Source: an uncultured virus (IMG/VR IMGVR_UViG_3300029258_001230) (taxonomy: Duplodnaviria; Heunggongvirae; Uroviricota; Caudoviricetes). Taken from it: DNA of 64,000 nucleotides. The notes under the pieces were generated by a model, which had not been told where the DNA came from, did not search any database, and was given only the letters and a program-made list of their open reading frames with translations. The position numbers and the translations under genes are program-made. Each line of letters opens with the position of its first letter. The stretch's first letter is position 1. The stretch is from IMG/VR virus record IMGVR_UViG_3300029258_001230, one strand, 5' to 3'. Of the stretch, positions 15,050-38,588 are shown piece by piece.

Positions 15050-15505
15050 ATGTCAAATAAGGTGATTACTCCGAAAACTGATAAAAGCGGATTGTATAAA
15101 CATGGTTACTACCATTCGGAAGGTGGTATTCAAGTTTTCGTTGATGGGGTTAAGGAAATAGAGGTTGAAAAAGACGAGTATAAGATATGCAGAGGGGCTT
15201 ATAATAGTGATAAGATTTATGACTTTAAAGGAAAGACTAACCTAGAGGTGTTAGATGCTTTATTTAAAGACGCTCAATGTACGTTTAAAACGGAGTATGC
15301 AGATAGTGGGGATTTTATACTTTGCCGTCCAGTAGTGTATGATCGAAAAAAACATAACCGAAAAGGAACAGTAAAAGAAATACTTAATCAAATGCAATCA
15401 GAGAAGTCTTGCAGGGTTGAGAATGGAGATGATTCTAAGTCAAAAGGCGGAGAGTTGACTAATAAAGGTTGGTTTAAAGGAATGCTTAGTTTTTTAAATT
15501 GGTAA
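15050..15505 (+). CDS. GxxHxxGG-domain protein with C-terminal FLNW tag
   Basis: GYYHSEGGI...EIEVEKDEY; ends KGGEL...KGWFKGMLSFLNW. Confidence 0.7.
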   Translation: MSNKVITPKTDKSGLYKHGYYHSEGGIQVFVDGVKEIEVEKDEYKICRGAYNSDKIYDFKGKTNLEVLDALFKDAQCTFKTEYADSGDFILCRPVVYDRKKHNRKGTVKEILNQMQSEKSCRVENGDDSKSKGGELTNKGWFKGMLSFLNW

Positions 15506-15515
15506 AAACAAAATT

Positions 15516-17969
15516 ATGAAAGAAAACTTGAATATATTGATAAATAAAGAACCTTTGTTGTCAAAAACAAAAAAGAAAAGAAAAATGGAAAAAGACAAAT
15601 TCAACCACGATAGACTTCATTTTTACATTAATAAAAACAATGAAATGAGGGTTAAAACTCATTTAAAAAAAGGTCAATTCAAAAAGTTTTTAAAGTCTTT
15701 GAAAGTGCCATATACAACAGAGTCTAATTCAAGTGGTGATATTGTATCTGTTTACACCAAGGACAAGCGACCAATAGCTAGATATTTCAAGAGAGACGGG
15801 TTGTTGATTTCTAGAGATGATAGGTTTGTTTTAAAGTTGTTTAGAATGATTAATAAGATTAACCCGAAAATGGAAGAGGGCGGTAAACTAAATCCATACG
15901 CTATTTGCACAAGTTCAATAGGAGATAAAGAAGGAACAAACAAAAGGTCTGAATGGGATAAAAATGCTAAAGAAAGATATGATAATTGTTTAGAAAGTGT
16001 TTCTAAAAAAGAAGAAGGTGGCGAATTAAAAAGCGATTTTGATAAATTTAAGTCTTTATACAGGGAAGCTTTAAAAGAATACAATCAAAATAAAAACAAG
16101 GCAACAAGGCTTAAATTAAGTAGTGCTATTCATGTGTTTTACAGGGATTTCGTAACGTTTAACCCTGAATACTTATCAGTTTTTATTGAGTGGAACAATA
16201 AGTTACCAAAAACAGAGAGGTTTTTCACATATTATTCAGATTCATTTGAGAACTTTAAAGAAAATCCTTACTCATTAATTTCAGACGATTTAAAGTCAAG
16301 TAAATCTGTTTCTAAAGTCAAGTATGAATTAAACCCTAAAAACAAAGGTTTAGTATCATTAATGAAGGACTTTGTAAGCAATGATGAACTTCGTATAAAC
16401 CTGATGCCTATCCATTTTGACGACAAAGGAGTCGTTGGGACTGATGCTCATAAATTATTGTTTATTAAAGGTAATTCAGATTTTAAAGGTAATTACTGTA
16501 TAACTAAAGATTGTTTTAATGTCGTAGGGGGTGAGAAAGCGGTGAAAGACAGTAAATATCCCAATTATCAAGCTATTATTCCGTCTGATGTTGCAGAGAC
16601 AACAAAATTCAAAACCCAAGACCTATATAACTTTGTATCAACTATTGTTAATAACTCTCTATGCGACGGTAACCACGGTATATCTATACGCACAGAGGAA
16701 GGTGTAATGGATTTTAATGGGAGGTTATTAAAAGAGTCCTTGTCGTCAATGATGAAGCTGGGCTACAAAGAACTATCTTGTAATAGGTCAAGTATCCATA
16801 CTGACTCAAAGCCAATAACCTTAACGCCAGTTGGAAATGAGTATCAAACTTCTGATTTTGAAACGGATTTTGTTTTGCTTATGCCTGTCATGTTTAATGA
16901 TAAACCTGTTTTCGGGTATGACTTGCATGAAAATTGTGTTTTTGCCAATACCTATAAAGGAGATGATGAATGTGTCAATCCTTATTTAGAAAGCAAAAAT
17001 ATAGTGAAAGTTGAAGACGTTGAAAAGAAATCCAAAGAAATCAGAAAAAGCATAGAGGTTCTAGCGTCTTATGTTTTTTCTGGAGTAAAAACAAGGGATG
17101 TGGTAATTGACAAATACTTTACTCCTAATTTCGAGGGTAATTACTATGAGGTTTCTAGTCCTTTAGAGACTGTTTACTTTAATGACTATGTCTTTCATAT
17201 AGTTAAATCTAAGGATTTTGCTGAATATATAATGATAGAGGATTACACAGGAGCTTCTGTTGGAAGAGGCGCAAGTTTGAGTGAAGTAAAAGAAAAAGGT
17301 TTAGAAAATTTAAACAGGCAATCTGAATCATTGAAGGAGGCTATTGATGGTTTTATCGAATCAGGAAGAATAAGCCCTAGATATAGTGATAAATCTAAAA
17401 CTATTAAAGACGCTCAAAAGATAAAGATAAAAGAGTTGTTAAATACAAGAGATTACGGAAGTTTATATGAAATAATAATGACAGCTTCTAATAAGGACTC
17501 AAGGAGAGCTTATTCGGATTTATCTGGAACTAACATTGTGAACATGAATCAATCCCAAATAAAGGATTATTTAAAGACTGCTTATGGGTACGATGTTGAT
17601 TATGAGGTTAAAAAAGAGCAGGATAAAAAGAAGTTGGAAAAAGAGAGACAAGAAAAGGAGTATTGGGATGGTATAAAGTCAAAATACCCACTAATTGATT
17701 TTTCAAATACACCTAACAAAACCGTGAAACGAATAGACGATTATCTTAATAAGAGAGTTAGAGGTGCTAATGGAGTCGTTGATAATTACAAATATTTAGA
17801 AGATTGGAATGGAACTTACAAACGAGTTTATATAGATGAGTGGACGAAATCAGGAGATAAAAGAGCTAAACCAATAGTAGAATATTATATTGGAAACGAT
17901 AAAGGGGCGATGACTCAAGTTCCTAAAATGATTTACGATAGAATAAACTTGCCAGAGAAACAAAACTAA
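15516..17969 (+). CDS. large polyvalent protein with a beta-sliding-clamp-like domain
   Basis: FVSNDELRINLMPIHFD...VVGTDAHKL...KYPNYQAIIP resembles DnaN segments (ATDGHRL, YPDYxxVIP). Confidence 0.65.
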   Translation: MKENLNILINKEPLLSKTKKKRKMEKDKFNHDRLHFYINKNNEMRVKTHLKKGQFKKFLKSLKVPYTTESNSSGDIVSVYTKDKRPIARYFKRDGLLISRDDRFVLKLFRMINKINPKMEEGGKLNPYAICTSSIGDKEGTNKRSEWDKNAKERYDNCLESVSKKEEGGELKSDFDKFKSLYREALKEYNQNKNKATRLKLSSAIHVFYRDFVTFNPEYLSVFIEWNNKLPKTERFFTYYSDSFENFKENPYSLISDDLKSSKSVSKVKYELNPKNKGLVSLMKDFVSNDELRINLMPIHFDDKGVVGTDAHKLLFIKGNSDFKGNYCITKDCFNVVGGEKAVKDSKYPNYQAIIPSDVAETTKFKTQDLYNFVSTIVNNSLCDGNHGISIRTEEGVMDFNGRLLKESLSSMMKLGYKELSCNRSSIHTDSKPITLTPVGNEYQTSDFETDFVLLMPVMFNDKPVFGYDLHENCVFANTYKGDDECVNPYLESKNIVKVEDVEKKSKEIRKSIEVLASYVFSGVKTRDVVIDKYFTPNFEGNYYEVSSPLETVYFNDYVFHIVKSKDFAEYIMIEDYTGASVGRGASLSEVKEKGLENLNRQSESLKEAIDGFIESGRISPRYSDKSKTIKDAQKIKIKELLNTRDYGSLYEIIMTASNKDSRRAYSDLSGTNIVNMNQSQIKDYLKTAYGYDVDYEVKKEQDKKKLEKERQEKEYWDGIKSKYPLIDFSNTPNKTVKRIDDYLNKRVRGANGVVDNYKYLEDWNGTYKRVYIDEWTKSGDKRAKPIVEYYIGNDKGAMTQVPKMIYDRINLPEKQN

Positions 17970-17973
17970 AAAA

Positions 17974-20307
17974 ATGAACAAACAAGACAGAGTAAAACAA
18001 GAGGTTGAAAAGCGATTAAGAGAAAGTCAAAAAAGCAAGTCTTTCAAGGATGTTGGAAGAGTAGCCAACACCCGAAAGGAAATAAGGGCTTATAACCTAA
18101 TCAATAGCAGTATGCTTTCTGAATTAGAAGAGGATTCAGTAATGGCATATAAGATGGTTAAGAAAGATAACGTTTGGGAAAAGATTGACATTGATAGTCT
18201 AAGAGCAAAAGAAATGACTTCTGGGGCTGTTTTCTACATAACCAAACTAAGAGAGTCGGTAAAGTCAAAGCCTTCTGACAGTAAAAAGAACAGAGCTGTT
18301 TACGTTAATTTTTTAGGGTACTTGCAAACTCAACTTTATAGCTGTAAGGATTTGAATGATGTTAAGAAGGTGATGGACTCATTCAGGTCTATTAAATTAG
18401 ATAAAGCTATTGAAGTTTTAATTGAGCCTAAGTTTAATGAATTATCGGAGTCAGAAAAAGATTTGCTTAGGCTTCCGTTTGGTGGAACGAGATATACGCC
18501 AAATGACAATGCTACTTATAAATTCATGTCCACTATTAAAGATGTTTTTGGTGTAAGGTTTTTAAACACCCTATATCTTAGAAGTGACTCTGCAATGAGT
18601 AATTTTATTCAGGCAGAGAAATATGATCCGTTGTCGGAAGAAGATTCAAGTGAAAGGATAGAAAAGATAACGGAATCTTATGAGAGTTACGCTAAAAGAA
18701 ATATCTACCCTAGAATTGAAGAACTGAAAGATGCTGATGACACTAAATTAAGGGAGCTTTTAAGGAATTGGAGGAATAATTATATCCAAAAATTGTATAC
18801 TACAAACTTAGAGGGGTTTAGAGAAATGGCTATTAATTGGTTAGAAAAAACATTAGAGTCCAGAAAAGAAAATTTAGAAGCTAAAATAAAAGAAAACCAG
18901 CCTAGGGGTAATAATTGGTCTTGGCACGATGGTAAATCTGAAAAATCAGAGGAAAAGAAAAAGACAAAAAGAAAAGCAACACCAATCAATACAAAAAAGC
19001 GATTGGAGTACATTAAAAGAACAGGCGGTTATAAAGCTGACGCAGTTACACCAAAGGAAATAGTAGATAAATTCGGTTTCCAATCAGTAAACTACGGAAC
19101 ATACGTGGATGATGAATGGAGTAAGCAACACACTAACCACTTTTTAGGAGCTATGACCGATATGGCAGAGATGCTAAATATTGATATTAAACAAGTCAAT
19201 AATATTGGTAAATTAGATATAGCATTTGGAGCAAAAGGCGTTAAAGGTCATTTAGCAACCTACTTTCCACAAACAAAAGATATTAACCTAACTAAAGGTA
19301 ATGGAGACGGGTCGTTAGCTCACGAGTGGGGTCACTACTTTGACAATATTGTAATGGATGAAAGTGCAAATAAGCCAATTCCTTCTTTTGGTTCGGAGAC
19401 ATTTTCTAATAAAACAGTTTCTGCTAGGAAATCTAGGGAAGAAATAGAGAAAGTCCACCTTTACAATGCTTATGCTGAGTTAATGGATTTTATGATTAAT
19501 GGAGGTAAAGAAACACCTGAGTTACCATGTACTTTTTATGCTGTTAAGAAAGGTTATGAACCAAAGATTAACACTAGAAAAGGGTGGGAGGATGTAAATA
19601 AACGAGGAACATTGGAAGAAACACTATCCTACTTCAAAGAAAATGCACCTGCTTTATTTAAGATACAAACTAATACCAATAGCTATAATAGTCAAGTTAA
19701 TATTATAGGTCATATTCTTAGTTTATACGATGTAGATAGTTATGAGATACCCTTGAAGCTTAAAATGAGTTACTTTAAGCACAAGTCATTATACCATGAA
19801 TTTGTTTATTGCTCAAAAGGAAAAGACAAGAGGGGTAAAGAAGTTATTTCTCCAAGCGTATGGAATAGAACAAAGTATTGGTATTCAGATGTAGAACTAT
19901 TTGCTAGAGCATGGGAAACAATGATTCTTAGAAGACTTAATGAAAAAGGAAGAGTAAGCAACTATTTGGTTTCAGACGTTAAGTATCAAGAGAACGCAAC
20001 GCCTCACGAAGGGTTTTATGAGCCATATCCAGACGGAAAGGAATTAGAGAAGCTAGACGAGTTATTTGAAAGGGTGATTAACGCATTTAAAAGCCTGTAT
20101 TCAATTAATGACTTCAAGCCGTTTACAAATGTTCGGGAAGATGAATACTTTGAGTTTGAGTCTAAAAATAAAAAGAGAAAAGGCGAAGTAGATGAAGGTA
20201 TGATTGTAGAAAAGAAAGAAAGTAGAAAAGAAATAGAATTTGTAGATCCCGACAAAGACACGGAAATTGTTAGGAATCTTAAAGTTCTCAAAACATATAT
20301 TGATTAA
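17974..20307 (+). CDS. polyvalent protein with zincin metallopeptidase and LPD1-like region
   Basis: IAFGAKG...INLTKGNGDGSLAHEWGHYFD and YWYSDVELFARAWE...YLV...PYPDGKE. Confidence 0.8.
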   Translation: MNKQDRVKQEVEKRLRESQKSKSFKDVGRVANTRKEIRAYNLINSSMLSELEEDSVMAYKMVKKDNVWEKIDIDSLRAKEMTSGAVFYITKLRESVKSKPSDSKKNRAVYVNFLGYLQTQLYSCKDLNDVKKVMDSFRSIKLDKAIEVLIEPKFNELSESEKDLLRLPFGGTRYTPNDNATYKFMSTIKDVFGVRFLNTLYLRSDSAMSNFIQAEKYDPLSEEDSSERIEKITESYESYAKRNIYPRIEELKDADDTKLRELLRNWRNNYIQKLYTTNLEGFREMAINWLEKTLESRKENLEAKIKENQPRGNNWSWHDGKSEKSEEKKKTKRKATPINTKKRLEYIKRTGGYKADAVTPKEIVDKFGFQSVNYGTYVDDEWSKQHTNHFLGAMTDMAEMLNIDIKQVNNIGKLDIAFGAKGVKGHLATYFPQTKDINLTKGNGDGSLAHEWGHYFDNIVMDESANKPIPSFGSETFSNKTVSARKSREEIEKVHLYNAYAELMDFMINGGKETPELPCTFYAVKKGYEPKINTRKGWEDVNKRGTLEETLSYFKENAPALFKIQTNTNSYNSQVNIIGHILSLYDVDSYEIPLKLKMSYFKHKSLYHEFVYCSKGKDKRGKEVISPSVWNRTKYWYSDVELFARAWETMILRRLNEKGRVSNYLVSDVKYQENATPHEGFYEPYPDGKELEKLDELFERVINAFKSLYSINDFKPFTNVREDEYFEFESKNKKRKGEVDEGMIVEKKESRKEIEFVDPDKDTEIVRNLKVLKTYID

Positions 20308-20351
20308 AAAAAAACTAAAAAAAGGGTTAACTTTGTAAAAACAAAATACTT

Positions 20352-22505
20352 ATGAAGGTAGATATAGGTGATATAGTGAAAGTTGGGATAGGTTCAGATT
20401 TTCACTATGGTTATATAGAAAGTACAGATAGTGGTTTTCCGAATTACTTGCCTAACTATGTTAAAGTTAGTGGTATAGGAGATGCTATTGAAATTGATAA
20501 AGTAGAGAAAGTAAAGGCAGGAGAGGTGATTGAGTTAGATTACACGGAAATAACACCTTTGTCTACTCAATTATCAAGAATAACAGGGGATTCATGGACG
20601 GCTAAAAACTTTTCATCTTTAGGGGGTGATGAGCCTGATTCGGATGAATTGTTTATTCACACTAAAAGCAGGGTTAGATTTAAAACGCCTAGTAAACTGT
20701 GGAATAAAATAGATGGGTATAACTTGTACGTTGAAGATGAATTAATAAAGACGGCTAAAACGAATAAACCAATCGCTTCTGTTAAGGATGGAGAGTTAGA
20801 TTTTTCAATATTGGCGGACGGGATATATATTGATAAAGGAGAGGTTAAGAAAAAATACTTGTCAGGGGAAATACCATTTAACACTTCTGATAAGATTAGA
20901 TCAATAATCGGGGTTTCGCCAAAAGAAGACAGAGCAGAGGTTGAAGCTTTAGCGAGTGATGTTATTAAAGCTACCGTTGAAGAAGATGGTTCTTTGATTA
21001 CTTTTGATTCTATTAGCGATATTGTTGACAATGGTAGAGAATGGTTAGTTGATTTTGATGTTACCGTTAAAAGTGATGAAACAGTAAGTAAGGAAGTTAT
21101 AAGCCTTACTATAAATGATATGCACGAAGTATTGTCTGGAGGTGATTTTGATAGTCCAGAATATTTTGAATTAGGTGGTGAGTTGGATGATTCTAAGTAT
21201 GAGTCGTACAGGGATGATGTGATAAGACACTCTGAATACTTTGAGGCAGGAAATGGGTATAATTCTAGTTTTGATGGAGCTACAAATAAAGACGGGCATA
21301 AAACTAATGGTGAATATATTATAGAAGACAATAATATATTTTGGGTTTATACTGATGGAAAAGGTGAAGAATACAGCTCTAATGAGCAACCAAATTTTAG
21401 AGTAGATTTTGGTTCTTTAGTAGTAAAAGAAAATTATAAAGAAGGCGGTTCTATAAACTCTAAATTCATAGACTATGTATTAAAGTTCTACGGAAAACAA
21501 GGAGATAGTCAAGACAAAAAGAAACTTTTTGGTTCTGGAATAGAAGCTTATGAAGTTGAAGAAGCTGAAAAAGAGTTAAGATCCAAAAATAATTGGGGCG
21601 ATGGAGATTCGCTAGATAGAAAAAGAGCTAGAGATTTAATTTTAGAAAACCGAATTAAAAGACTAGAGGAATTGATTAAGGCTGATGACAAGGATATTAA
21701 AGAGCATTCTAGTATAGTTGGAGGTAAAACACCGAAAGAGATTAAGGAGTTAGCGAAAAAGACTGTTGAAAGCCTTGAATCGGAAAGATTGAATCAAGCG
21801 ATTATGGGACAAGGGGTAGATGCAGTTGCGCAAGAAAAAAAAGGCAAGGATGTGTATGATAACACGTTTTACCATTGGCACAATATATCTTTTGAAGGAG
21901 ATGAAGATGTATATGCTTATCCGACCCCAAAAGGAACAATAGTTTATGGGGAAGATGTTTCAGGAGAAAGGGAAAAACCATTTGGTACAAATTTTTCAAA
22001 AAGTCCTTTCTATTTAGAAACACAGCCTGATGAAGAGTATGACTTTGATTCTTTAGAAGAGTCTAAAAATAAAGCCTTAGAAATTATTGAAGAAAAAGGC
22101 TTAAATGAAAAAGGTTCTAAAAAGGATTTAAAGAAAGCTGATAAATCAAAGTACGACTTATTTATAAACGGGAAAACTTGGCATTACGGGGTTAACATCA
22201 AGGACGGTAAAGTAGATTACGATACTTTTAAAGGAAAAGATTTAGAATTTAAGTCAAGTAAAAAAGGAATTGAAGTATCTAAGTTACCTAAGTCAATAAG
22301 ATCAAAAGTTGAAGATTATTTATCTAAAGACGGAAATTCGGGTGATGATAATAAGGAGGTTTTAGAGGAAATTGAAATTCAACTAGAGGTGTTAACTGAT
22401 TTAAAGAACGATTTAAACCCTAAGTCAAAAGACGATAAAGATGTGTTGGAAGAAATTGAAATCCAACTAGAGGTATTAACTGATTTGAAAAACGATTTAA
22501 AATAA
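20352..22505 (+). CDS. large acidic multidomain protein (putative internal virion protein)
   Basis: 717 aa; FELGGEL and YKEGGSI motifs; C-terminal duplicated helix. Confidence 0.7.
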   Translation: MKVDIGDIVKVGIGSDFHYGYIESTDSGFPNYLPNYVKVSGIGDAIEIDKVEKVKAGEVIELDYTEITPLSTQLSRITGDSWTAKNFSSLGGDEPDSDELFIHTKSRVRFKTPSKLWNKIDGYNLYVEDELIKTAKTNKPIASVKDGELDFSILADGIYIDKGEVKKKYLSGEIPFNTSDKIRSIIGVSPKEDRAEVEALASDVIKATVEEDGSLITFDSISDIVDNGREWLVDFDVTVKSDETVSKEVISLTINDMHEVLSGGDFDSPEYFELGGELDDSKYESYRDDVIRHSEYFEAGNGYNSSFDGATNKDGHKTNGEYIIEDNNIFWVYTDGKGEEYSSNEQPNFRVDFGSLVVKENYKEGGSINSKFIDYVLKFYGKQGDSQDKKKLFGSGIEAYEVEEAEKELRSKNNWGDGDSLDRKRARDLILENRIKRLEELIKADDKDIKEHSSIVGGKTPKEIKELAKKTVESLESERLNQAIMGQGVDAVAQEKKGKDVYDNTFYHWHNISFEGDEDVYAYPTPKGTIVYGEDVSGEREKPFGTNFSKSPFYLETQPDEEYDFDSLEESKNKALEIIEEKGLNEKGSKKDLKKADKSKYDLFINGKTWHYGVNIKDGKVDYDTFKGKDLEFKSSKKGIEVSKLPKSIRSKVEDYLSKDGNSGDDNKEVLEEIEIQLEVLTDLKNDLNPKSKDDKDVLEEIEIQLEVLTDLKNDLK
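22343..22502 (+). repeat. intragenic duplication encoding VLEEIEIQLEVLTDLKNDL twice
   Basis: Two copies visible in protein and DNA, with synonymous differences. Confidence 0.85.
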
Positions 22506-22510
22506 TAAGA

Positions 22511-24010
22511 ATGGATTTATCAAAATTAACTATTGACGAATTAAAAAAGGAGATTAATAAGATTGAATTTACTATTAAAAAACAGTCTGAACCTATTGTT
22601 TCTGTACTTAAAAAGAAGTTGAAAAAATACGAGGACGAGTTGAATGGTAGAGACGGAAAGAGTAAGCCTAAAAAGTCTCCGAAGAAAGCAGAGCCAAAAA
22701 AGACCGATAAAAAAGCGAAAGCAGAAAGTGTAACTATTTATTGGGCAGAGGGAGATCAATCTAAATTAGATAAGTTCCCTAAAACATATTACTCTTGGGA
22801 AGATGCTAGTAATGCTATCAAGCCATTAGTTGAAAAAGGCTTGGGATATAATAAAGTCAAATATACTATTACTTTTGACGATGGTTCTGAATATGGTGGC
22901 AGACTAGATGTTTCTGAAAAAGAAGATAATCCAATTAGAGATTCTAAGGTATTTGCGAACACACCTAAAAAATTATTAGAATACTTAGTTAAAGAGGACG
23001 GGGATAAATCTGCTAAAGAGTTTTTAGATACACATGATTTTGACTCTCCTATGGTAGGAAAAAAGAAAAAAGAAACTAAAGAACCGAAAGAAGGTCAGGT
23101 TTATAAAATCAATGACAAGTCCAAGTCTATCAAGGCTAGAGGCGAGATTATTATAACGGATATTAGTGGTGGAAACGTCACGTTAGAGCCATTTCCTTTA
23201 AAGCCTAAAAAGAAGATGTCAGACACTTCTATTTTAAGAGTAGGAGTGTTTAAGAATATGGTTGATTCTGGAGATTATATTCACGTTAAAGACATTGAAT
23301 TGAAAGAAGAGCCTAAAACAAAGAAATACAAACTAGGCGATATGTATAGTTCAGATTTCGATTACGAAGGAATGATGGCTTATGCTGACAAGGTAGATGA
23401 AAAAACAGCGTTATCTACTTTAGAGAAATTGTCTGAGAGTATGCACGATGTCAACTATCACACAGAAGCTAAACGAATAGATGACTTAATCAAGAAAAAG
23501 AAAGACTCAAAGAAAGAAACGCCAAAACCAAAGGCTAAAACATTTGAACTTAAAATAGACGACAAGGTTTATAAGTTTAATGACGAGGCATCTAAAATTG
23601 AGTGTGAAAAGGCTATTGAAGCGGTTAAGGCTAGAAAGAAAGAAAAAGAAGAACACGAAAAGGCAAGAGAAGAAGGGCGTGAGAAAGCGAAAAATACTCC
23701 TGCGACAACTCGTATTGCGGAATCATTTGAAAAGATAACTAAAAGTGTCCTTAGAGAAGTTCCAGAAACAGCAATAGATAAGAAACCTAAAGAGGTTAAA
23801 AAGGAATTAGGCGAATTGGAAAAAGCGATCAATAATATGTTTGATAAGCTTGAAAATCTATTAGATAAGAAATTCAGCAAAGAGTCAAGGGCTAAAATTC
23901 TTGAAATTCTTACTAAATTTGAAGGGAAGTTGAAAGAAAAAGAAGTTGAAAAGAAAGAATTAGGAGGAGAGTTAGAAAGAAAGTCTCCATTAAGTTTTTT
24001 AAATTGGTAA
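22511..24010 (+). CDS. polyvalent protein with LPD25-like domain and FLNW tag
   Basis: VTIYWAEG...GYNKVKYTITFDDGSEYGGRLDV; ends ELGGELERKSPLSFLNW. Confidence 0.65.
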   Translation: MDLSKLTIDELKKEINKIEFTIKKQSEPIVSVLKKKLKKYEDELNGRDGKSKPKKSPKKAEPKKTDKKAKAESVTIYWAEGDQSKLDKFPKTYYSWEDASNAIKPLVEKGLGYNKVKYTITFDDGSEYGGRLDVSEKEDNPIRDSKVFANTPKKLLEYLVKEDGDKSAKEFLDTHDFDSPMVGKKKKETKEPKEGQVYKINDKSKSIKARGEIIITDISGGNVTLEPFPLKPKKKMSDTSILRVGVFKNMVDSGDYIHVKDIELKEEPKTKKYKLGDMYSSDFDYEGMMAYADKVDEKTALSTLEKLSESMHDVNYHTEAKRIDDLIKKKKDSKKETPKPKAKTFELKIDDKVYKFNDEASKIECEKAIEAVKARKKEKEEHEKAREEGREKAKNTPATTRIAESFEKITKSVLREVPETAIDKKPKEVKKELGELEKAINNMFDKLENLLDKKFSKESRAKILEILTKFEGKLKEKEVEKKELGGELERKSPLSFLNW

Positions 24011-24035
24011 TTAGTTAAAGGTAATATTTAAAGGT

Positions 24036-26576
24036 ATGGGAAAGAAATTCAGAAATAGCGAAATGACTGTTGTAGGCAAAAGAAGAGATAAGAACGGAAA
24101 CAGAACAATTAGATTAGGTTTTCCTGATGGAAAAGGGTTCAGTATTCAGACAAACGGAAACTTACCAGAAACGCATTCTATTTTTAGTAGAGTTAAAAGA
24201 GTAGACATGTTAACTGGAGAAGAGTTAGATGTAATTGAAAAGGAGGTTATTAGGTATGTAGAAGCTTTTGGAACTAAAAGACAGAAGGATTTAGTAGGAG
24301 TGGAGAAAAAAGCCAAAGGCGGTAAAACTCGTTCAACACACGCTATTAATCAAGACCGTAAAAGACTAAGCCAAGAGCCTTGGGAGCAAGCGTACAAGAA
24401 AAAAAGAAAAGGAGACTATTATGAGCCTGAAAAGAAAGAAGAAGGTGGTTCAATCAAGATGAATAATTTAGATTGGGGTAAAACAACTACTGAAAGAAAT
24501 AGTAATTTAGATTATTACAACTCCCTTGAAACTATAAAGGAAAAAGAGGATTTTAAAAGAAAGCTAAAGTCAAAAAATGAATCAGTTTTAAAAATAGGAG
24601 ATACGGTTAAGTATCCCGATGCTGAATATACAGGAGAGATTATTGAGTTAAAACCATCAACGGCTATTAAGGGAGAGGTAGAAGTAACAGTTTTATATAG
24701 AGATGGCAAGATGGTAAAAGACCTTGGTAGCTCGTTTGTGAAGACTAAAGCTAAAGATATAAGCTCAATAAATCCTAAGAGTTTTACGCTAAATGATATT
24801 ATTAATACAGTTAGTGATGTGGATGTTACAATGATCCGAAAAGGAACTTCTTTAGACAGTGCTGACAAAAGAGATATTTCATGGAGATTAGGAGATGGCT
24901 CTAAAAAGTATAGAGAGTGGTTTTCTAAAGAGTGGACTATTTCTGACTATGCTATAATTGAAGCGTCAAAAGGATCAGAGAATTTATATGCTGACATAGT
25001 TGTTTATTTTAACAATGAAGAGGATGGGGATATTTACCAAGCATATACAGTTAGTCTTTACTCTAAAAATAATGTTAAGGGGTTAAAATCTTTAATTTCC
25101 CACTTTGTTCAAAAAATGGAAAAAGGTGGTAAAACCCGTTCAACACACGCCATTAATCAAGATCGAAGAAGATTAAGTCAAGAGCCTTGGGAACAAGCGT
25201 ACAAGAAAAAAAGAAAAGGAGACTATTATGAGCCTGAAAAGAAAGAAAAAGGTGGTTCTTTGGGTGAGGATAATGGAAGAATATCAAAATCCGAAATCAA
25301 AAAACAAGGATATACAACTACCTATGATGTTTTAGGAGAAGATATTATTGGTAAAGAGGTTACAGTAAGTCATAGAAAAGAAAAAGGAATTGTAGACGGG
25401 TTTAAAGATTTAGGCGATTCTAACTATGAGGTTCTTATTTGGTATCCAGAATTAGGATTTTCGGAAGCGGTTAATACAAAATTTATTGATGTTAGATTTG
25501 TAGAGGAGTTTAAGGATGGCGGTTCTGTTTTTGTTGATTTGTTTGCTAAAGGTGGAGAAGTAAAAATGGTTGTTTTCCAAGTAAAAAAACCGAATGGCGA
25601 TTGGGAAGATAGAAAAGAATGGCAATCTAATGAGACTTATCAAAATGATTTAGAGCAAATGCAAAGAGAATACAAACAAGACCTACCCAATTTTAAAACA
25701 AGAGTTATTGAAAGAAGTTTTACCTTCGCTAAAGGTGGAGAGGTAGAAGGAGAATTAAAAGGCGAGATAATTAAAGAAGTAAACTCAAAGGTTTGGACTT
25801 TACAACTTTATGATGATAATGGCTATCATTCTTCAATTTACGCACCTAAAAAGTCTGACCTAACTCAATATATGAGAGAGCAAGGTATTAAAAAATACGC
25901 TAAAGGTGGAGAGGTAGACAATAGTTACCCTTCAATAGAAGTTGTAAAACACATTAAGTCTTTAGACTTGTCTGGATTGGAATCCATGAAGTCTGAGTTA
26001 GAAAAGGAAATGAGTAAAGGTCTTTTGAAAGGAAGAAAACACGATAGAGAGTTGTCTTTAATAAAAAGAGAAATCCGCAAAAGGAAGGGTGATTTGACTG
26101 ATGTTTTTGAAAGCGGAGGAGAGATAGAGTCTGCTTATGTTGATTACCTAAACGATATTGGTGATTCATACGACTACGAGAGTGATGAATGGATTATTGG
26201 TGGAGAAAATAGGGCTGATGAATATTGGGGCAGATATGGAGAAGCTTTAAGAGATCATGACCCAATAGGTTTTGAGGTTGGTAAAAACGAATTTGAAAGA
26301 GATGTTTTTGCTAAAGGAGGAAGCGCAAAAGGCTTGTCTCAAGAAGAGTTGGAACAAATAGCTAGTGATTTCGCTTATGTAACAGGAGGTGATGAAGAAA
26401 AGGCTATATATAGGCTTGTCGATCCTGATTACACGGATACTCTTCTTCCTAAATACAAAAAGGCTATTGAGGAGTGGGAACAAAAACATGGTGAGAAAGT
26501 TAGTGTATATAATAAGGGCGGTGTCATTAAATCAAAAGGATGGTTTAAGGGTTCATTATCATTCCTAAACTGGTAG
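24036..26576 (+). CDS. modular polyprotein with 11 xxxGG motifs and FLNW tag
   Basis: FAKGGEV twice, YAKGGEV, FESGGEI and others; ends KGWFKGSLSFLNW. Confidence 0.75.
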   Translation: MGKKFRNSEMTVVGKRRDKNGNRTIRLGFPDGKGFSIQTNGNLPETHSIFSRVKRVDMLTGEELDVIEKEVIRYVEAFGTKRQKDLVGVEKKAKGGKTRSTHAINQDRKRLSQEPWEQAYKKKRKGDYYEPEKKEEGGSIKMNNLDWGKTTTERNSNLDYYNSLETIKEKEDFKRKLKSKNESVLKIGDTVKYPDAEYTGEIIELKPSTAIKGEVEVTVLYRDGKMVKDLGSSFVKTKAKDISSINPKSFTLNDIINTVSDVDVTMIRKGTSLDSADKRDISWRLGDGSKKYREWFSKEWTISDYAIIEASKGSENLYADIVVYFNNEEDGDIYQAYTVSLYSKNNVKGLKSLISHFVQKMEKGGKTRSTHAINQDRRRLSQEPWEQAYKKKRKGDYYEPEKKEKGGSLGEDNGRISKSEIKKQGYTTTYDVLGEDIIGKEVTVSHRKEKGIVDGFKDLGDSNYEVLIWYPELGFSEAVNTKFIDVRFVEEFKDGGSVFVDLFAKGGEVKMVVFQVKKPNGDWEDRKEWQSNETYQNDLEQMQREYKQDLPNFKTRVIERSFTFAKGGEVEGELKGEIIKEVNSKVWTLQLYDDNGYHSSIYAPKKSDLTQYMREQGIKKYAKGGEVDNSYPSIEVVKHIKSLDLSGLESMKSELEKEMSKGLLKGRKHDRELSLIKREIRKRKGDLTDVFESGGEIESAYVDYLNDIGDSYDYESDEWIIGGENRADEYWGRYGEALRDHDPIGFEVGKNEFERDVFAKGGSAKGLSQEELEQIASDFAYVTGGDEEKAIYRLVDPDYTDTLLPKYKKAIEEWEQKHGEKVSVYNKGGVIKSKGWFKGSLSFLNW
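24315..25258 (+). repeat. Two copies of a ~137-bp intragenic repeat (24315-24451 and 25122-25258)
   Basis: KGGKTRSTHAINQDRxRLSQEPWEQAYKKKRKGDYYEPEKKExGGS occurs twice. Confidence 0.9.
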
Positions 26577-26580
26577 ATAT

Positions 26581-27033
26581 ATGGCAAAGAAAGTAAAAGA
26601 CCCTAACTTTGAAAAGTTAATTTCTGATATAGATATAGATGAAGCCCCCGTTGATTCGGGGGAGGATTCTGAGTTAGAGGGTCAAAAGGAATTGGAAAAC
26701 GAGGATTTTGAGGAAACGGAGTCTGAAAACGAAGAGGATGATAAGGTTGTTTCTGGCTATGAAGATTTTATCGCTCAAAACGAGATAGACGCTTCTTCTT
26801 TGCCGAAACATATTACTTCCTTAATTGATATTTACAATGAAGTTCAGTTAGAGGATAAAGAAAGTGAATCATTGGACGTTATAGACAAAAGGATAGTTTC
26901 CGAAATAAAGGATTGGAATAATTCAGATAATGAAGAAGAGCCTACTCAGGAAGAGTTAGAGAACGTAAACGATACCTTAGAATCAAAAGGCGGTTTGTTT
27001 GACGATGTTTTAGGTGGTGTTTTTAATTGGTAG
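26581..27033 (+). CDS. highly acidic protein with FNW tag
   Basis: E/D-rich; ends ESKGGLFDDVLGGVFNW. Confidence 0.75.
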   Translation: MAKKVKDPNFEKLISDIDIDEAPVDSGEDSELEGQKELENEDFEETESENEEDDKVVSGYEDFIAQNEIDASSLPKHITSLIDIYNEVQLEDKESESLDVIDKRIVSEIKDWNNSDNEEEPTQEELENVNDTLESKGGLFDDVLGGVFNW

Positions 27034-29696: not shown

Positions 29697-30560
29697 ATGA
29701 GAGAAGCATTATTAGGAATTGCAGTAGGCAGAAAAGGGGTAGGTAAGACTTACGCTACCCTTCAAGATATTCAAGGATATTTAAAGGGAAATCCAAGCAC
29801 AGGTGTGAAGCCTAGAAAAGTGTTAATACTAGATGTTAATAATGAGTTTGGAAATGTTAGAGAAGATCAGAACCCCGAATTTGAGCATATAAAAGCTATT
29901 AAGCTTGATGACGTTCCTAAATTCACCATGTCTAAGAAAGTAGAGGCTAGACGAGTATCCGTTCTTAAACCAGAGGGCGGGAAAATGAATATGCGTGAAT
30001 TAGCAGGGGCTTTAGAGTTTATTTTAGAGAATTACGAGAATGGGTTGTTGTTAGTGGAGGATTTAACTAGATTTGTTTCTGATTCACTTCCAAATGACTT
30101 AATTGGTGCAATTTGTACTCAAAGACACGTATCAGTTGATGTTATTATCCATTTTCAAACTATCGGAAAAGCAGCTAATCCTAAGTTGTGGGGTAATTGT
30201 AATTGGTTAAGATTCCATAAATGCGATGACAACGTAGAGAGACATAAAAATAAATTTGGAGGAGATATTGAACATCTTAAAATACTTGAAAAATTAGTTG
30301 AGATACAATATAGGCAAGGCGATAAACGTTTTTATGCTTACTTGAACAAGGATGAGCATAAGATTCAGGGTAATTTCGATAAGAAAGACTTGATGTATGC
30401 GGTCTATCAGTATTTGGAAGATAATTACAATACAGTAATGAAACCAAAGCTAAATAAGAAGGATTTAATAACAGGCAAACCCGTTTATGATAATCACGAA
30501 GAATTAGCAAAAAAACTGATTAAGGAATTAACTTTAAAATACTACGGTAATCCTTTCTAA
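29697..30560 (+). CDS. genome-packaging ATPase, FtsK/HerA superfamily (A32/P9-like)
   Basis: Walker A GRKGVGKT, Walker B LLLVED, arginine-finger/sensor QRHVSVDVIIHFQ; stand-alone 287 aa with no nuclease domain. Confidence 0.8.
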   Translation: MREALLGIAVGRKGVGKTYATLQDIQGYLKGNPSTGVKPRKVLILDVNNEFGNVREDQNPEFEHIKAIKLDDVPKFTMSKKVEARRVSVLKPEGGKMNMRELAGALEFILENYENGLLLVEDLTRFVSDSLPNDLIGAICTQRHVSVDVIIHFQTIGKAANPKLWGNCNWLRFHKCDDNVERHKNKFGGDIEHLKILEKLVEIQYRQGDKRFYAYLNKDEHKIQGNFDKKDLMYAVYQYLEDNYNTVMKPKLNKKDLITGKPVYDNHEELAKKLIKELTLKYYGNPF

Positions 30561-34912: not shown

Positions 34913-35599
34913 ATGAGAGATTATTTTGGAGAAGCGATGAATTTCGCAAACGAAAGCTACTCTAACTATGATGGTGGAGGTTGGAACAACATGGATTCTT
35001 ACAACTACCAAGATGGTTATGAGTACGCTTCACAAGGAGCAGGTGTAGAAGCAAAAGCTTCTTTACCATTTGTAATTAACATTGCTAACTCAACTACTGA
35101 TGACGTATCATCTGTTGTTGTATTAGGTGCTAACTCGAATTTGACTGGAGCTACTAACTTTGGTAACGTTGCGGCTATTACTATTACAATGGATAATGGT
35201 GATGTAACTTATACTGAGTTCTTAGAGTCTATCAAGTCTGAGCCATTTAAAGTTGGTTATATGTATTTAGAGTCTTCTAATACAGCACAGCCATTTAAGC
35301 AATTGACTGTAACGTATAGAGAGCCTAATGGTCGTAAGACAGAGTTACCTGTAACTCCACGTAAAGACCCTATGCAGAATCAAGCGGATGTTACTATTGT
35401 TAAGTATTCATTCCCAGTAGACGGATTTACAAGAATCACAACTACTATCTTGGCATCTGCGACTCTTACTATGAGTCTGTACCCACAAGAGCAATTGAAC
35501 CTTGCAAGAGGTTTAGTAGGACGTTCGATTGGTAAAGCTTATTCACAGCCTAACTTATCGCAATTCCAATTGCCTACGGGTAATCCTTTAGTAGGATAA
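34913..35599 (+). CDS. putative major capsid protein (single jelly-roll-like)
   Basis: Beta-strand-rich 228 aa; codon usage looks highly expressed (AAC, TTC, GCT, CGT); own upstream promoter region and terminator; opens the structural block. Confidence 0.6.
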   Translation: MRDYFGEAMNFANESYSNYDGGGWNNMDSYNYQDGYEYASQGAGVEAKASLPFVINIANSTTDDVSSVVVLGANSNLTGATNFGNVAAITITMDNGDVTYTEFLESIKSEPFKVGYMYLESSNTAQPFKQLTVTYREPNGRKTELPVTPRKDPMQNQADVTIVKYSFPVDGFTRITTTILASATLTMSLYPQEQLNLARGLVGRSIGKAYSQPNLSQFQLPTGNPLVG

Positions 35600-35676: not shown

Positions 35677-36108
35677 ATGACTATATATGAATACACGGCA
35701 ATTAATAATCCCAACGGAGCTAGAAATCTTTTAGGTTCTTATGGTGTTAAGCCTATCAACAGACCTGATTACTTAGCTAAACAATTAGCTGATTTAATAT
35801 CTCGAACAGGGAATGATGGTTTGTATAAATTAGGTTCTATTCATCCTGATTTTGAATTGGTAAAGAAAATTGTCCAAGGTCAAGTTGAAAAAGAATATAA
35901 GGAGAAAGAATCTGAGAAAGAAAAAAGCTTCCTTAATGCTGATGGTCAGGAAATTAAAGACACGGTAAAAGAGATAAAAGCAAAACAAGAAGTAATGGGG
36001 TATGGCAATGGATCAAACTCACCGAATATTAACTCTGATAAAACAGAATTAATGATAATAGGAAGTATTGCTTTAATTGGATTGGCGTTGATTTTAAATC
36101 GAAAGTAA
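35677..36108 (+). CDS. virion membrane protein (C-terminal TM)
   Basis: FLNADG motif; C-terminal hydrophobic helix plus RK. Confidence 0.7.
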   Translation: MTIYEYTAINNPNGARNLLGSYGVKPINRPDYLAKQLADLISRTGNDGLYKLGSIHPDFELVKKIVQGQVEKEYKEKESEKEKSFLNADGQEIKDTVKEIKAKQEVMGYGNGSNSPNINSDKTELMIIGSIALIGLALILNRK

Positions 36109-36698
36109 TGAGACATTATAGCAATACAATTAAGAATATAGCTAACGCATACAAGTCTAATGACTTAGAGTTGGCTAGACATTTCGTATATACTGAGTTG
36201 GCTCGCATGATAGATGAAGAGCCTAATAAGGTTGCTGATTTATTAAATGAATCAGGTGTTACAGGTGTAAGTTCTCAAAGTGATAAGACTAAGTTGGTTG
36301 AAGCATCCTCTAGGGAGATAATCAGAAATAAAAAATTCCAAGACTTAATATTAGCTAAAATAGCTATTAATTCTAAGAAGTCTAATTTTTATAAGGCGAA
36401 TGGAGAAGGTGTTTCCGATTTGGTAGAGCAAGTAGGTCAAGCAGGGCAGTCTGCTGGAGGAGGTCAAGCAGGTGCTATTATAGGTTCTCTATCTGAGTTG
36501 GGTAGTAATATATTTGGTTTTTTTACTACTAAAAAGCAAATGGATATTGAGGAGCAACAAGCCAAGTCATCTATGTATGCTAATTTACTTAAAGATGATG
36601 ATGATGGAACTAATTGGCTACCCATAGCTATTATAGGAGGTGTTCTCCTCATTGGAGGGGTTGTAGTTTGGAAAGTTTTAGGAAGTAAAAATAAGTAA
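36108..36698 (+). CDS. virion membrane protein, paralog of 36709
   Basis: FYKANG, Gly-rich segment, C-terminal TM. Confidence 0.7.
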   Translation: MRHYSNTIKNIANAYKSNDLELARHFVYTELARMIDEEPNKVADLLNESGVTGVSSQSDKTKLVEASSREIIRNKKFQDLILAKIAINSKKSNFYKANGEGVSDLVEQVGQAGQSAGGGQAGAIIGSLSELGSNIFGFFTTKKQMDIEEQQAKSSMYANLLKDDDDGTNWLPIAIIGGVLLIGGVVVWKVLGSKNK

Positions 36699-36708
36699 AA
36701 AAAACAAG

Positions 36709-37242
36709 GTGGTAGGTTTGAATAAAAAGCAGTTAATAGGGGTTTTTGCTAAGTTGATAAGCAAGAACCCTTTGGCTGTTAAAAACTTATTGAGAGACCA
36801 TGGGGTTGAAGTTGGTGATGATAAATATAAAATCGCTAAATATTTATTGGATAATATTAAAAACAACCCTGTTTTAGTGAGAGATTTGTCTAGCTTGATT
36901 GTTAAAGAAGGATTGATTAAATCTATTGATTATTCTAGTGGCGATGGAAGATGGGCAGAAGCAGGAGTAACCGTAGCTAAAGACACGGCAACAGGAGCGC
37001 AATCAGGAGGTGGTGTTGGAGCAATTGTCGGCTTTATAGTAGGGTCTATATCGGCAGGGTTTGGAATAGGAGATGCTAAAAAACAAGACGAGTTAGAGGA
37101 CGAAAAGGCAAAAAACGAACTTTATGCAGATTTGTTTTCAGAAGAAAAAGAATTAAAAAAGAATAATTTAATACCAATACTTATAGTCGGGGGTGTTTTA
37201 TTAGTTTCAGCTATAATGATTGTTGTATTTGTAAAATTTTAA
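36709..37242 (+). CDS. virion membrane protein, paralog of 36108
   Basis: KKQDELEDEKAKNELYADL vs KKQMDIEEQQAKSSMYANL; IPILIVGGVLL vs LPIAIIGGVLL. Confidence 0.7.
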   Translation: MVGLNKKQLIGVFAKLISKNPLAVKNLLRDHGVEVGDDKYKIAKYLLDNIKNNPVLVRDLSSLIVKEGLIKSIDYSSGDGRWAEAGVTVAKDTATGAQSGGGVGAIVGFIVGSISAGFGIGDAKKQDELEDEKAKNELYADLFSEEKELKKNNLIPILIVGGVLLVSAIMIVVFVKF

Positions 37243-37246
37243 ATAG

Positions 37247-37735
37247 ATGTTAATAGAAGCTACTTTAATAAATGATTGTTTATCTCCAAAAGGGAGTTTG
37301 TCTTCTGAGGATAAAAAACCATTCCATAAAGGTGATAAGGTTGTAGGTAGGGTTGTTGATATAAAAAATGGCGACTCGAAAATGCTAGGATTACAGACAG
37401 TAGAAGGTTATATAATACCAGATGCTTTTGTAGAGCCAATAGGAGAGTTTAAAGGTGATCCAAATGATTTAGGTATTCAGGATGCTGAATATTACGAGGA
37501 AGAGTCGATTGGTAAAAAAGCTGTTAGTGATTCAATCCAAAAAGTAAATCCCAAAAACCTCATAAGTTCAAATAGTATGAGGAGTAAAAAAGCTGTTCAA
37601 ATAGGAGTTGCAGGAGGGTTGTTAGGTCTTGTTGTAGCGATGATTTATGGTAAAAACAAATTAATATCTACTGGTATAGGTGCTTTTGGAGGTATGGTGG
37701 TAGGTAATTACATTTCAGAAATAGAAAATAAATAA
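37247..37735 (+). CDS. membrane protein with two C-terminal Gly-rich TM helices
   Basis: GVAGGLLGLVVAM and GIGAFGGMVVG. Confidence 0.7.
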   Translation: MLIEATLINDCLSPKGSLSSEDKKPFHKGDKVVGRVVDIKNGDSKMLGLQTVEGYIIPDAFVEPIGEFKGDPNDLGIQDAEYYEEESIGKKAVSDSIQKVNPKNLISSNSMRSKKAVQIGVAGGLLGLVVAMIYGKNKLISTGIGAFGGMVVGNYISEIENK

Positions 37736-37737
37736 TT

Positions 37738-38220
37738 ATGGGACAGAATAAAAAAGCGATTTTGAAAACGGGGTTTGGAACAACTTTGAATTTGTTAGAG
37801 TTAAGTCCTAGAGAGTATATAGTGACAAAGAAAATAACTACTGTAATAGATACTCCTCATCAAGAAATTAAAGGGACTAAAAACACTTTTCTTGAAGGTG
37901 CTAAAATCAAAGGTAATCTATGGAAAGAAACTGATGATAAGCAAGGTAAGCAAAGAAATGTAGTAATGGTTCAAGCTGACGGTGGTAGATATTTATTACC
38001 CGTTGATGTTGTTGAGTTGGTTGATACAGAGAAAGAAGAGATTAAAAAAGAACTAGAGACCTTAAAAGGAGATTTAGAAAAGTATAAAGATCAAGCAAAA
38101 GAACATTTGTCTGGAATAAAGACAGAAACTAAAGACTTGTTTGATAAAGAAGTTTTCGGACTAAAGGTTAAGCAGTTGTTGTTAATAGGTGTTGGGATTT
38201 TGATAATTAAAAAATTGTAA
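37738..38220 (+). CDS. membrane protein (C-terminal TM)
   Basis: Ends LLLIGVGILIIKKL. Confidence 0.7.
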   Translation: MGQNKKAILKTGFGTTLNLLELSPREYIVTKKITTVIDTPHQEIKGTKNTFLEGAKIKGNLWKETDDKQGKQRNVVMVQADGGRYLLPVDVVELVDTEKEEIKKELETLKGDLEKYKDQAKEHLSGIKTETKDLFDKEVFGLKVKQLLLIGVGILIIKKL

Positions 38221-38588
38221 TGGGAAATAAAGTTTCGGTAATAGGCGTTAATTTTAAAAATCAGTACAACGAGGCTATGAGCCAAGTAGTTGCTACTGGC
38301 ACAATAACTCCTTTACTAAATCTTTACCTTAAATACAACAAACAATTAGAGCAAAACCACGGTTTGAGTATTAATGAATTTCTAGGGCTTTCTAATGAGA
38401 AAATTGACTCTATAATTAGTGTGGAAAAGTATTTGAACGATAATAAAGTAAATGCAGGTAGTGATATTATATATACTGAATCATTAAATCAGAACGATAA
38501 TGGTAGCAGTTTCAATGTTAACTACATATATCCTATAGCAGGAGTTTTGTTGTTAAGTGTTGGTGTGGTTTTAATTTTTAAAAAATAG
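38220..38588 (+). CDS. membrane protein (C-terminal TM)
   Basis: Ends IAGVLLLSVGVVLIFKK. Confidence 0.7.
   Translation: MGNKVSVIGVNFKNQYNEAMSQVVATGTITPLLNLYLKYNKQLEQNHGLSINEFLGLSNEKIDSIISVEKYLNDNKVNAGSDIIYTESLNQNDNGSSFNVNYIYPIAGVLLLSVGVVLIFKK

What the first reader, a model, noticed from the sequence alone, without database searches (positions are those of the whole stretch)
15050..27033. About 18 xxxGG motifs divide the large proteins into modules: candidate polyprotein cleavage code
Seen: KSKGGEL (15050); MEEGGKL, KEEGGEL (15516); FELGGEL, YKEGGSI (20352); KELGGEL (22511); KAKGGKT, KEEGGSI, MEKGGKT, KEKGGSL, FKDGGSV, FAKGGEV twice, YAKGGEV, FESGGEI, FAKGGSA, YNKGGVI (24036); ESKGGLF (26581). 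The duplicated 137-bp module begins and ends at such motifs. Established: adenovirus protease and ASFV pS273R cleave virion precursors at Gly-Gly sites. Inference: these are packaged polyproteins cut into separate effector domains, or the motif is a docking tag.
Basis: partly seen in the sequence, partly recalled or inferred. Interest (0 to 1): 0.8.

Follow-up and report, generated by a model that had tools for sequence, protein, structure and literature searches.

The report
Repeated cut signal in viral cargo
The large proteins of this uncultured, apparently tailless bacterial virus are strings of swappable modules joined by one short Gly-Gly signal, which likely marks where they are cut apart in the particle, just before the signal as at the mapped cut in phage T5's tape-measure protein, although no cutting has been shown here.

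Summary
Confirmed: 18 motifs in 3,959 aa of the cluster versus 1 in the other 18,442 aa. In 28 related virus records, which played no part in defining it, the motif occurs 399 times versus 25 in shuffles; consensus K-[MFY]-A-[KDE]-G-G-x-[VTIL]. It marks module seams: homology ends there and 1 of 143 motifs lies inside a Pfam domain versus 22.5 expected. The scan found this motif before on other genomes (e1-6105860, e1-8348574). New here: ORF 15050 belongs to a ~90-aa module present once per genome (11 of 11 near-complete records) and homologous to the motif-flanked C-terminal module of Bacteroidota tape-measure proteins (hhalign E 1e-14). T5's mapped tape-measure cut is R|AEGG, and crAss001 cargo gp45's resolved domain starts exactly at an AFGG. 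So the cut is likely before A-x-G-G, not after GG as in the adenovirus/ASFV analogy. The T5 link is motif-level only; cleavage, packaging and the enzyme (this module or zincin 40102) are inferred. An uncut docking tag is the main rival.

The parts
15050..15505 (+). Stand-alone, internally duplicated and degenerate copy of the H..GG...E.(G/K).E module (candidate motif reader or protease); one motif (15437) and a C-terminal ...GWFKGMLSFLNW tail
   Evidence: (two matches in G000)
15516..17969 (+). Polyvalent-type protein with 2 motifs (15870, 16008)
   Evidence: no family hit
17974..20307 (+). Polyvalent protein with HEWGH zincin-like stretch and LPD1; no motif; not a core gene
   Evidence: LPD1 E 2.5e-14; CLCA_X-like, below cut-off
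20352..22505 (+). Modular protein with 2 motifs (21165, 21435); a 78-position stand-alone phage family (phrog_7799) matches from residue 371, directly after the second motif (residues 362-366)
22511..24010 (+). Modular protein (weak LPD25), 1 motif (23954) 13 residues from the end, ...PLSFLNW tail
24036..26576 (+). Main polyprotein: 11 motifs giving segments of 11-227 aa, including a duplicated 42-codon module (24309 and 25116); ...GWFKGSLSFLNW tail
26581..27033 (+). Acidic protein, 1 motif (26980), ...VFNW tail
29697..30560 (+). Core P-loop ATPase, inferred A32/FtsK-type packaging ATPase
   Evidence: Walker A GRKGVGKT; 8 of 8 genomes; family assignment from recalled motifs
34913..35599 (+). 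Core single jelly-roll protein, inferred major capsid protein; disordered N-terminal ~48 aa with a second motif (YSNYDG)
35677..44707 (+). Block of small, mostly tail-anchored membrane proteins; 7 carry the second motif [FY]x[NSK][AYFGS][DNETA]G
40102..40887 (+). Core gluzincin-type metallopeptidase (HEFSH plus invariant E198/E200) behind an N-terminal beta-sandwich; second candidate protease

Best explanation
The motif is a conserved seam between exchangeable modules of cargo polyproteins in a family of 50-100 kb, apparently tailless viruses, and is likely a proteolytic processing signal, predicted to be cut between the bulky residue and A-x-G-G, most likely by the single-copy module that ORF 15050 encodes. 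Shown: enrichment, consensus, position between domains, module shuffling at the motif, one module per genome, and homology of that module to the motif-flanked C-terminal module of Bacteroidota tape-measure proteins. Inferred: the polyproteins are packed into the particle; one long chain fixes loading and stoichiometry; during maturation they are cut into 50-90-aa pieces and larger enzymes (ADP-ribosyltransferase, zeta kinase, RelA/SpoT, NUDIX and methyltransferase domains in relatives) that begin with A/E-x-G-G and are delivered with the DNA. Given cleavage, my odds for the enzyme are: the 15050-type module 0.4, zincin 40102 0.35, host or other 0.25. Because the motif is also the point of exchange, any domain that lands between two motifs would become a separately delivered effector.
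For: Enrichment 18 vs 0.46 and 399 vs 25 in relatives. Inter-genome BLASTP alignments end at motifs on both sides 236 of 935 times versus 9 at decoys shifted -30, and 237 of 924 versus 44 at +30, with motifs and decoys masked alike. 1 of 143 motifs inside 43 Pfam stretches versus 22.5 expected. Modules recur in different order in different genomes. The module is in 25 of 31 records and 11 of 11 that are at least 90% complete, one match each except two in G000; 11 of the 25 were not in the query alignment, against 3-31 motifs per genome. It hits 36 phage records, all with Bacteroidota hosts, under tape-measure genes where annotated; these are flanked by YAKGG/FADGG, FARGG and FMEAGG; profile match Prob 98.3, E 1.4e-14. 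T5 pb2 is cut after R1127 (PMC10038345 passage), which reads FVPR|AEGGMM; R-A-x-G-G is kept in 5 of 5 T5-like proteins examined. Lambda gpH has F733|ATGG, giving a 79.8-kDa N-terminal piece (that gpH* is about 80 kDa is recalled). crAss001 gp45 has 6 xA[FYKEDT]GG sites (1 of 5,000 shuffles; pattern fitted post hoc); its resolved portal-bound domain starts at residue 425, the Ala of AFGG, and none of the 2 resolved segments or 4 peptides named in the text spans a site.
Against: No cleavage, packaging or proteomics data exist for this virus. Homology of the module to the T5 region is not demonstrable (hhalign E 0.72; 18-59 of 200 shuffles score as high), and is weak to lambda (E 0.07; 6 of 200) and crAss C1 (E 0.024; 0-13 of 200); the PF25725 model found nothing in 5 of 5 genomes. 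T5 has Arg, not an aromatic residue or Met, before the cut. Only 5 of the window's 18 motifs have Ala after the bulky residue (272 of 420 in relatives). The module shows conserved His and Glu residues but no known protease fold. PMC10172136 reads gp45 as one uncut chain and shows the domain bound to the portal, which fits docking; PMC10038345 assigns muralytic activity to the T5 piece. Only 3 of 6 crAss-like homologs start the domain with AFGG. 39 motif pairs are exactly 6 residues apart, which fits avidity or duplication as well as cutting. The capsid assignment is weak (best Z 6.2).
Confidence: 0.45

Rival explanations
1. The motif is an uncut docking or loading tag: many copies bind the 15050-type module, or the inner face of the capsid or membrane, and so tether cargo for packaging and ordered release.
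For: The look-alike crAss001 domain is seen bound to the portal and gp45 was interpreted as uncut. Exact 6-residue tandem copies (39 pairs) and motifs 2 residues from the C-terminus in 4 proteins suit multivalent binding. The motif resembles the module's own first strand. No protease fold was found for the module.
Against: A look-alike site is cut in T5. A tag needs one or a few copies, not one at nearly every domain seam. The resolved gp45 domain begins exactly at the Ala of a motif.
Confidence: 0.25
2. One reading: cleavage after Gly-Gly, as by adenovirus protease or ASFV pS273R, carried out by zincin 40102 or an unrecognised cysteine protease.
For: Invariant GG with conserved upstream residues; ITR-ended, apparently tailless jelly-roll virus, the group in which GG-cutting proteases are known (recalled); a core metallopeptidase is present.
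Against: The mapped look-alike cut is before AxGG. The motif is conserved on both sides of GG (+2 hydrophobic) and has Ala where the recalled adenovirus consensus has M/I/L. No adenain/Ulp1 hit among 40 of 131 ORFs scanned. 40102 lies among proteins that carry a different motif, which may be its substrate.
Confidence: 0.15
3. The motif has no reader: it is a flexible linker whose short DNA homology serves as the recombination joint for module shuffling, and it spreads by duplication.
For: Alignments start at the bulky residue and end at GG or two residues later; the 42-codon duplication is bounded by motifs; 6-codon tandems are common.
Against: Conservation is at the protein level, with F/Y/M interchangeable at one position. 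The same motif flanks the module in tape-measure proteins of unrelated tailed phages. Four window ORFs keep a motif 12-17 residues from the C-terminus with no module after it.
Confidence: 0.12

Closest known systems
Polyvalent proteins of phages and conjugative elements (Iyer et al. 2017, PMC5512222; passages read)
   Same: Long mosaic proteins with LPD1, LPD11, LPD25, ART-PolyVal, zeta kinase, RelA/SpoT, NUDIX, SNF2 and methylase domains; processing by zincin-like MPTases was proposed there.
   Different: No seam motif appears in the passages seen ('glycine' 0 occurrences); here up to 22 copies of one motif per protein, in an apparently tailless virus; the MPTase-type ORF 17974 has no motif and is not core.
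C-terminal processing of siphophage tape-measure proteins (T5 pb2 cut after R1127, PMC10038345; lambda gpH; DT57C, PMC10713586; passages read)
   Same: The T5 cut lies directly before A-E-G-G; Bacteroidota tape-measure proteins carry a module homologous to 15050 between two such motifs.
   Different: One or two sites per tape-measure protein versus 3-31 per genome here; no tail in this virus; homology to the T5 module itself is unproven; the passages read name no enzyme and no site motif (PMC10713586 found no conserved motif among the resolved C-terminal helices).
crAss001 cargo protein C1, gp45 (Bayfield et al. 2023, PMC10172136; passages read; Pfam PF25725)
   Same: A packaged cargo protein punctuated by x-A-x-G-G, with a resolved domain that starts at AFGG and holds G-G-S-H-E-E...V-E-Q-G-E-V.
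   Different: Tailed podovirus; published as uncut ('cleav' and 'proteoly' 0 occurrences in the main text); only weak profile similarity to the 15050 module.
Adenovirus protease and ASFV pS273R polyprotein maturation (recalled, no call)
   Same: Gly-Gly-containing sites in virion precursors of a linear, ITR-ended, jelly-roll virus.
   Different: Those are cysteine proteases cutting after GG or GX; none was found here, the consensus differs, and the best-supported register is before AxGG.

Membership tests
Polyvalent proteins (Iyer 2017) | Several unrelated conflict-related domains in one virus- or plasmid-encoded polypeptide | tested here: met
   LPD1 in 17974, weak LPD25 in 22511; 23 of 39 motif-bearing proteins of relatives have Pfam hits such as ART-PolyVal, LPD11, zeta, RelA/SpoT
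Polyvalent proteins (Iyer 2017) | Packaged in the virion and delivered to the host | not testable with these tools
   uncultured virus; no proteomics
Adenain / pS273R Gly-Gly maturation system | Virus-encoded CE-clan cysteine protease | tested here: inconclusive
   no hit among 40 of 131 ORFs or 18 proteins; the rest were not scanned
Adenain / pS273R Gly-Gly maturation system | Adenovirus site consensus (M/I/L)xGG|x (recalled) | tested here: not met
   the residue two before GG is Ala in 272 of 420 sites and the bulky residue is one further back
Adenain / pS273R Gly-Gly maturation system | Cut after Gly-Gly | not testable with these tools
   no cleavage data; the T5 look-alike is cut before AEGG
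Tape-measure C-terminal AxGG module | Sequence homology to the module of Bacteroidota tape-measure proteins, flanked by [FY]AxGG | tested here: met
   (Prob 98.3, E 1.4e-14)
Tape-measure C-terminal AxGG module | Homology to the T5 or lambda module, where cleavage is documented | tested here: inconclusive
   hhalign E 0.72 (T5) and 0.07 (lambda); shuffle test not significant for T5; no shared PHROG or Pfam family
crAss cargo protein 1 domain (PF25725) | Match to the family model | tested here: not met
   0 of 5 genomes, no hit for 15050 or the G008 module; only an Atlas feature score of 0.89 and weak profile scores
Tailless jelly-roll viruses (Varidnaviria / Singelaviria type) | Jelly-roll major capsid protein | tested here: inconclusive
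   34913 models as one jelly roll; many capsid proteins among the best matches but Z at most 6.2
Tailless jelly-roll viruses (Varidnaviria / Singelaviria type) | FtsK/A32-type packaging ATPase and no terminase, portal or tail genes | tested here: inconclusive
   one plausible P-loop ATPase of 287 aa; none of the 11 ORFs of 300 aa or more has a Walker A motif; no portal, terminase or tail hit among 40 of 131 ORFs scanned
Tailless jelly-roll viruses (Varidnaviria / Singelaviria type) | Linear genome with inverted terminal repeats (as in PRD1 and sphaerolipoviruses) | tested here: met
   exact 144-bp ITR in G000; 5 of 31 records classed ITR
Gluzincin metallopeptidases (ORF 40102) | HExxH plus a downstream Glu in a zincin fold | tested here: met
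   H184, E185, H188, E198, E200 invariant in 93 sequences; BepA/M48 best match Z 8.5, rmsd 4.1, 118 aligned
Gluzincin metallopeptidases (ORF 40102) | Peptidase activity and site preference | not testable with these tools
   needs an assay

The most novel reading that the evidence does not exclude
One processing signal, x|A-x-G-G, and one small self-processing module that reads it are shared across virus realms: they cut siphophage tape-measure proteins (the enzyme for the T5 and lambda cuts being the tape-measure's own C-terminal module), split crAss cargo protein gp45 into the separate pieces seen in capsid and tail, and, in this undescribed tailless family, have been amplified into a polyprotein code that turns any inserted domain into a separately delivered effector.
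Probability: 0.22. Interest if true: 0.92.

Novelty: new variant of a known kind. Interest (0 to 1): 0.74.

Why it matters
It gives a concrete site register and two candidate enzymes for polyvalent-protein processing, which so far was only proposed. It also makes questions in cultured phages testable at once: whether T5 and lambda tape-measure cleavage depends on AxGG and the adjacent module, and whether crAss001 gp45 is cut rather than threaded intact through the portal. A ~90-aa protease with a 7-residue site would be a new protease type and a useful tool. The virus family itself (zincin in 47 IMG/VR loci; 1,534 module homologs at 50% clustering, some of them tape-measure proteins) did not turn up in my paper searches.

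Tried and rejected
Cut after GG by an adenain-type protease: no such protease in the ORFs scanned, consensus differs. 17974 as the general protease: homologs in 2 of 28 upstream stretches, not core. Motif as a relic start of fused small genes (M-A-K-G-G): no ORF in the 40 upstream stretches starts M[AE]xGG, and F/Y often replace M. Masking artefact in the boundary test: removed by unmasked and decoy-masked controls. Statistical bridge from the module to T5, lambda or crAss: not obtained. No PDB, PHROG or Pfam family for the module; no cultured phage matches 34913, 15050 or a 2,093-aa polyprotein. The genome-contig scan gave 12 short MAG contigs of mixed phyla and did not settle the host. A tandem-motif DNA scan gave 15 loci, several in already fetched records; I did not analyse them further. 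Paper searches found no report of this motif as a cleavage signal; supplements of PMC10038345 (Fig. S5G) and the gp45 peptide map (Extended Data Fig. 3 of PMC10172136) could not be seen and bear on the claim.
Full report
1. Observation. A pattern fitted to them gives 18 hits in 3,959 aa versus 1 in the remaining 18,442 aa, and 0 of 2,000 shuffles reach 18. Because that pattern is post hoc, I tested relatives. The 42-codon duplication in 24036 is bounded by motifs. Four ORFs end in a motif plus 12-17 residues closing in FLNW/VFNW.

2. The virus. The genome is 74,211 bp with an exact 144-bp inverted terminal repeat. ORF 34913 is strongly conserved (141 homologs) and models as a single jelly roll behind a disordered 48-residue N-terminus; its structural matches include many capsid proteins but are weak (best Z 6.2), so 'major capsid protein' is inferred. 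29697 is a P-loop ATPase; 35677-45694 are mostly small proteins with a C-terminal hydrophobic stretch. No ORF of 300 aa or more has a Walker A motif and 40 of 131 ORFs scanned gave no portal, terminase or tail family: apparently tailless. The zincin 40102 fetched 47 IMG/VR loci; 30 of 30 records tested also carry the jelly-roll gene. Six families are shared by 8 of 8 genomes compared: 28462, 29697, 34913, 35677, 40102, 46228. A Bacteroidota host is inferred only from the module's phage hits; MAG hits were of mixed phyla.

3. The motif across the family. I fetched up to 20 kb upstream of the jelly-roll gene for 28 of the 30 records (G002 and G029 left out, gene near the contig start). They hold 399 motifs (shuffles 25, max 44 of 100), all 28 at least one, up to 22 in one protein. 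An unbiased profile around all GG in proteins of 300 aa or more gives K-[MFY]-A-[KDE]-G-G-x-[VTIL]; small proteins show no such profile. Spacing peaks at exactly 6 residues (39 pairs) and at 50-90 (median 72). Several records are close kin, so counts are not independent events.

4. The motif marks module seams. In 66 motif-bearing proteins, 418 segments fall into 266 clusters that recur in different orders. With motifs and decoys masked alike, inter-genome alignments end at motifs in both partners 236 of 935 times versus 9 for decoys (-30), and 237 of 924 versus 44 (+30); unmasked, starts pile up at the bulky residue and ends at GG or two residues later. Of 39 proteins scanned, 23 had Pfam hits; merging overlapping families left 43 stretches, and 1 of 143 motifs lies inside one versus 22.5 expected. 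Named cargo domains are those of polyvalent proteins; most segments have no family.

5. A single-copy module tied to the motif. One cluster is a ~90-aa module, GG-hydrophobic-G-x-x-H-S-x-GG...E-x-E-G-G-E...IN, of which ORF 15050 holds two degenerate copies. It occurs in 25 of 31 records and 11 of 11 near-complete ones, once each except G000; 14 of the 25 were in the query; the six misses are 41-70% complete. A profile search finds 1,534 proteins; in 142 of 148 top domains a motif follows 50-85 residues after the His (the profile includes that motif, so this is biased upward). In cultured phages it hits 36 records, all with Bacteroidota hosts, at the C-terminus of tape-measure proteins where annotated. 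There it sits between the same motifs: EMB1 YAKGG...FADGG, TCUEAP1 ...FARGG, phi46:1 ...FMEAGG; hhalign Prob 98.3. In those proteins the upstream motif is in register with the module's own first GG, so free motifs look like orphan copies of that strand (inference).

6. Where the cut would fall. PMC10038345 (passages) maps the T5 pb2 cut by mass spectrometry to after R1127. The sequence there is FVPR|AEGGMM, and R-A-x-G-G is kept in the 5 T5-like proteins I examined. Lambda gpH has F733|ATGG and Y778|ATGG around H-R-G-E-F-V; the first gives a 79.8-kDa piece (the ~80-kDa size of gpH* is recalled; passages of PMC11101478 and PMC10721106, give no site). An Atlas lead (PF25725, score 0.89) pointed to crAss001 gp45: six xA[FYKEDT]GG sites, a resolved domain 425-552 that starts at the Ala of AFGG, and no named segment or peptide spanning a site. 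The authors read gp45 as uncut; I could not see their full peptide map. Against: profile homology to T5 is absent, to lambda and crAss weak, T5 has Arg before the cut, and only 5 of the window's 18 motifs have Ala in that place. The T5 link is therefore a motif-level analogy.

7. Candidate enzymes. 40102: invariant HExxH and E198/E200, confident model (pLDDT 95), best match the M48 peptidase BepA, Z 8.5. It lies in the structural block, where a second motif, [FY]x[NS][AFYMW][DNETSA]G, occurs 133 times versus 14 in shuffles over 37 distinct loci, in 25 of 37 capsid-candidate N-termini and in 94 other proteins, 62 with a C-terminal hydrophobic stretch. The simplest division is two codes with two readers: 40102 for the shell and membrane precursors, the 15050 module for the cargo (inference). 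17974 is accessory.

8. Mechanism. Shown: motif, seams, shuffling, single-copy module, homology to Bacteroidota tape-measure modules. Inferred: packaging, cleavage before A-x-G-G, the enzyme, delivery. Confidence 0.45; uncut docking tag 0.25; cut after GG 0.15; linker or recombination joint only 0.12.

9. Known and new. The proteins are polyvalent proteins (PMC5512222, passages), whose processing was proposed without a site. The family is not among the groups in the passages read of PMC5894146, and searches (listings only, apart from the papers named) showed no report of the motif; the library lacks most subscription papers. This scan noted the motif on two other genomes; no note links it to tape-measure or crAss proteins. 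Verdict: real, a new variant of a known kind, interest 0.74.

Noticed in passing
window 34913-44707: A second motif, [FY]x[NSK][AYFGS][DNETA]G (e.g. YSNYDG, FLNADG), in 8 ORFs of the structural block and nowhere else in the genome; family-wide 133 vs 14 in shuffles. Probable separate maturation or sorting signal next to zincin 40102.
   Followed up: partly
window 15050, 22511, 24036, 26581 (C-termini); L052:3549-6102: Shared C-terminal tail after the last motif...(GWF)xGxLSFLNW; also in G001 (GWGLKFLNW), not seen in the other records examined. Possible loading tag.
   Followed up: partly
window 14403-14963 (-) and 15516-17969: The 186-aa ORF on the opposite strand is homologous to the last ~100 residues of 15516 (32% over 111 aa, E 2e-9): a module existing both free and fused.
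   Followed up: partly
window 30605-31708: Second jelly-roll-like protein related to 34913; homologs hit the capsid-candidate profile. Possible minor capsid protein.
   Followed up: no
window 27227-27520: Small basic DUF5754-like protein directly after the cargo cluster in 7 of 8 genomes.
   Followed up: no
L132:21988-24516 (crAss001 gp45): Both cryo-EM-resolved segments lie within motif-bounded pieces, which suggests that gp45 may be cut rather than threaded intact.
   Followed up: partly
L052/L080 (G001): In G001 the ATPase and the 28462 homolog lie upstream of the cargo cluster rather than next to the capsid gene, and only 3 motifs are present.
   Followed up: no
L077:13959-18980 (G026): The closest relative of 15050 is the N-terminal module of a 1,673-aa polyprotein with topoisomerase IB, ART, NUDIX and methylase domains separated by motifs.
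   Followed up: partly
window 54834-57736: Cluster of ORFs that look by eye like methyltransferase, glycosyltransferase and sulfotransferase genes, with 31698 and 33820 similar; possible particle glycosylation (33820 hits a glycosyltransferase PHROG).
   Followed up: no
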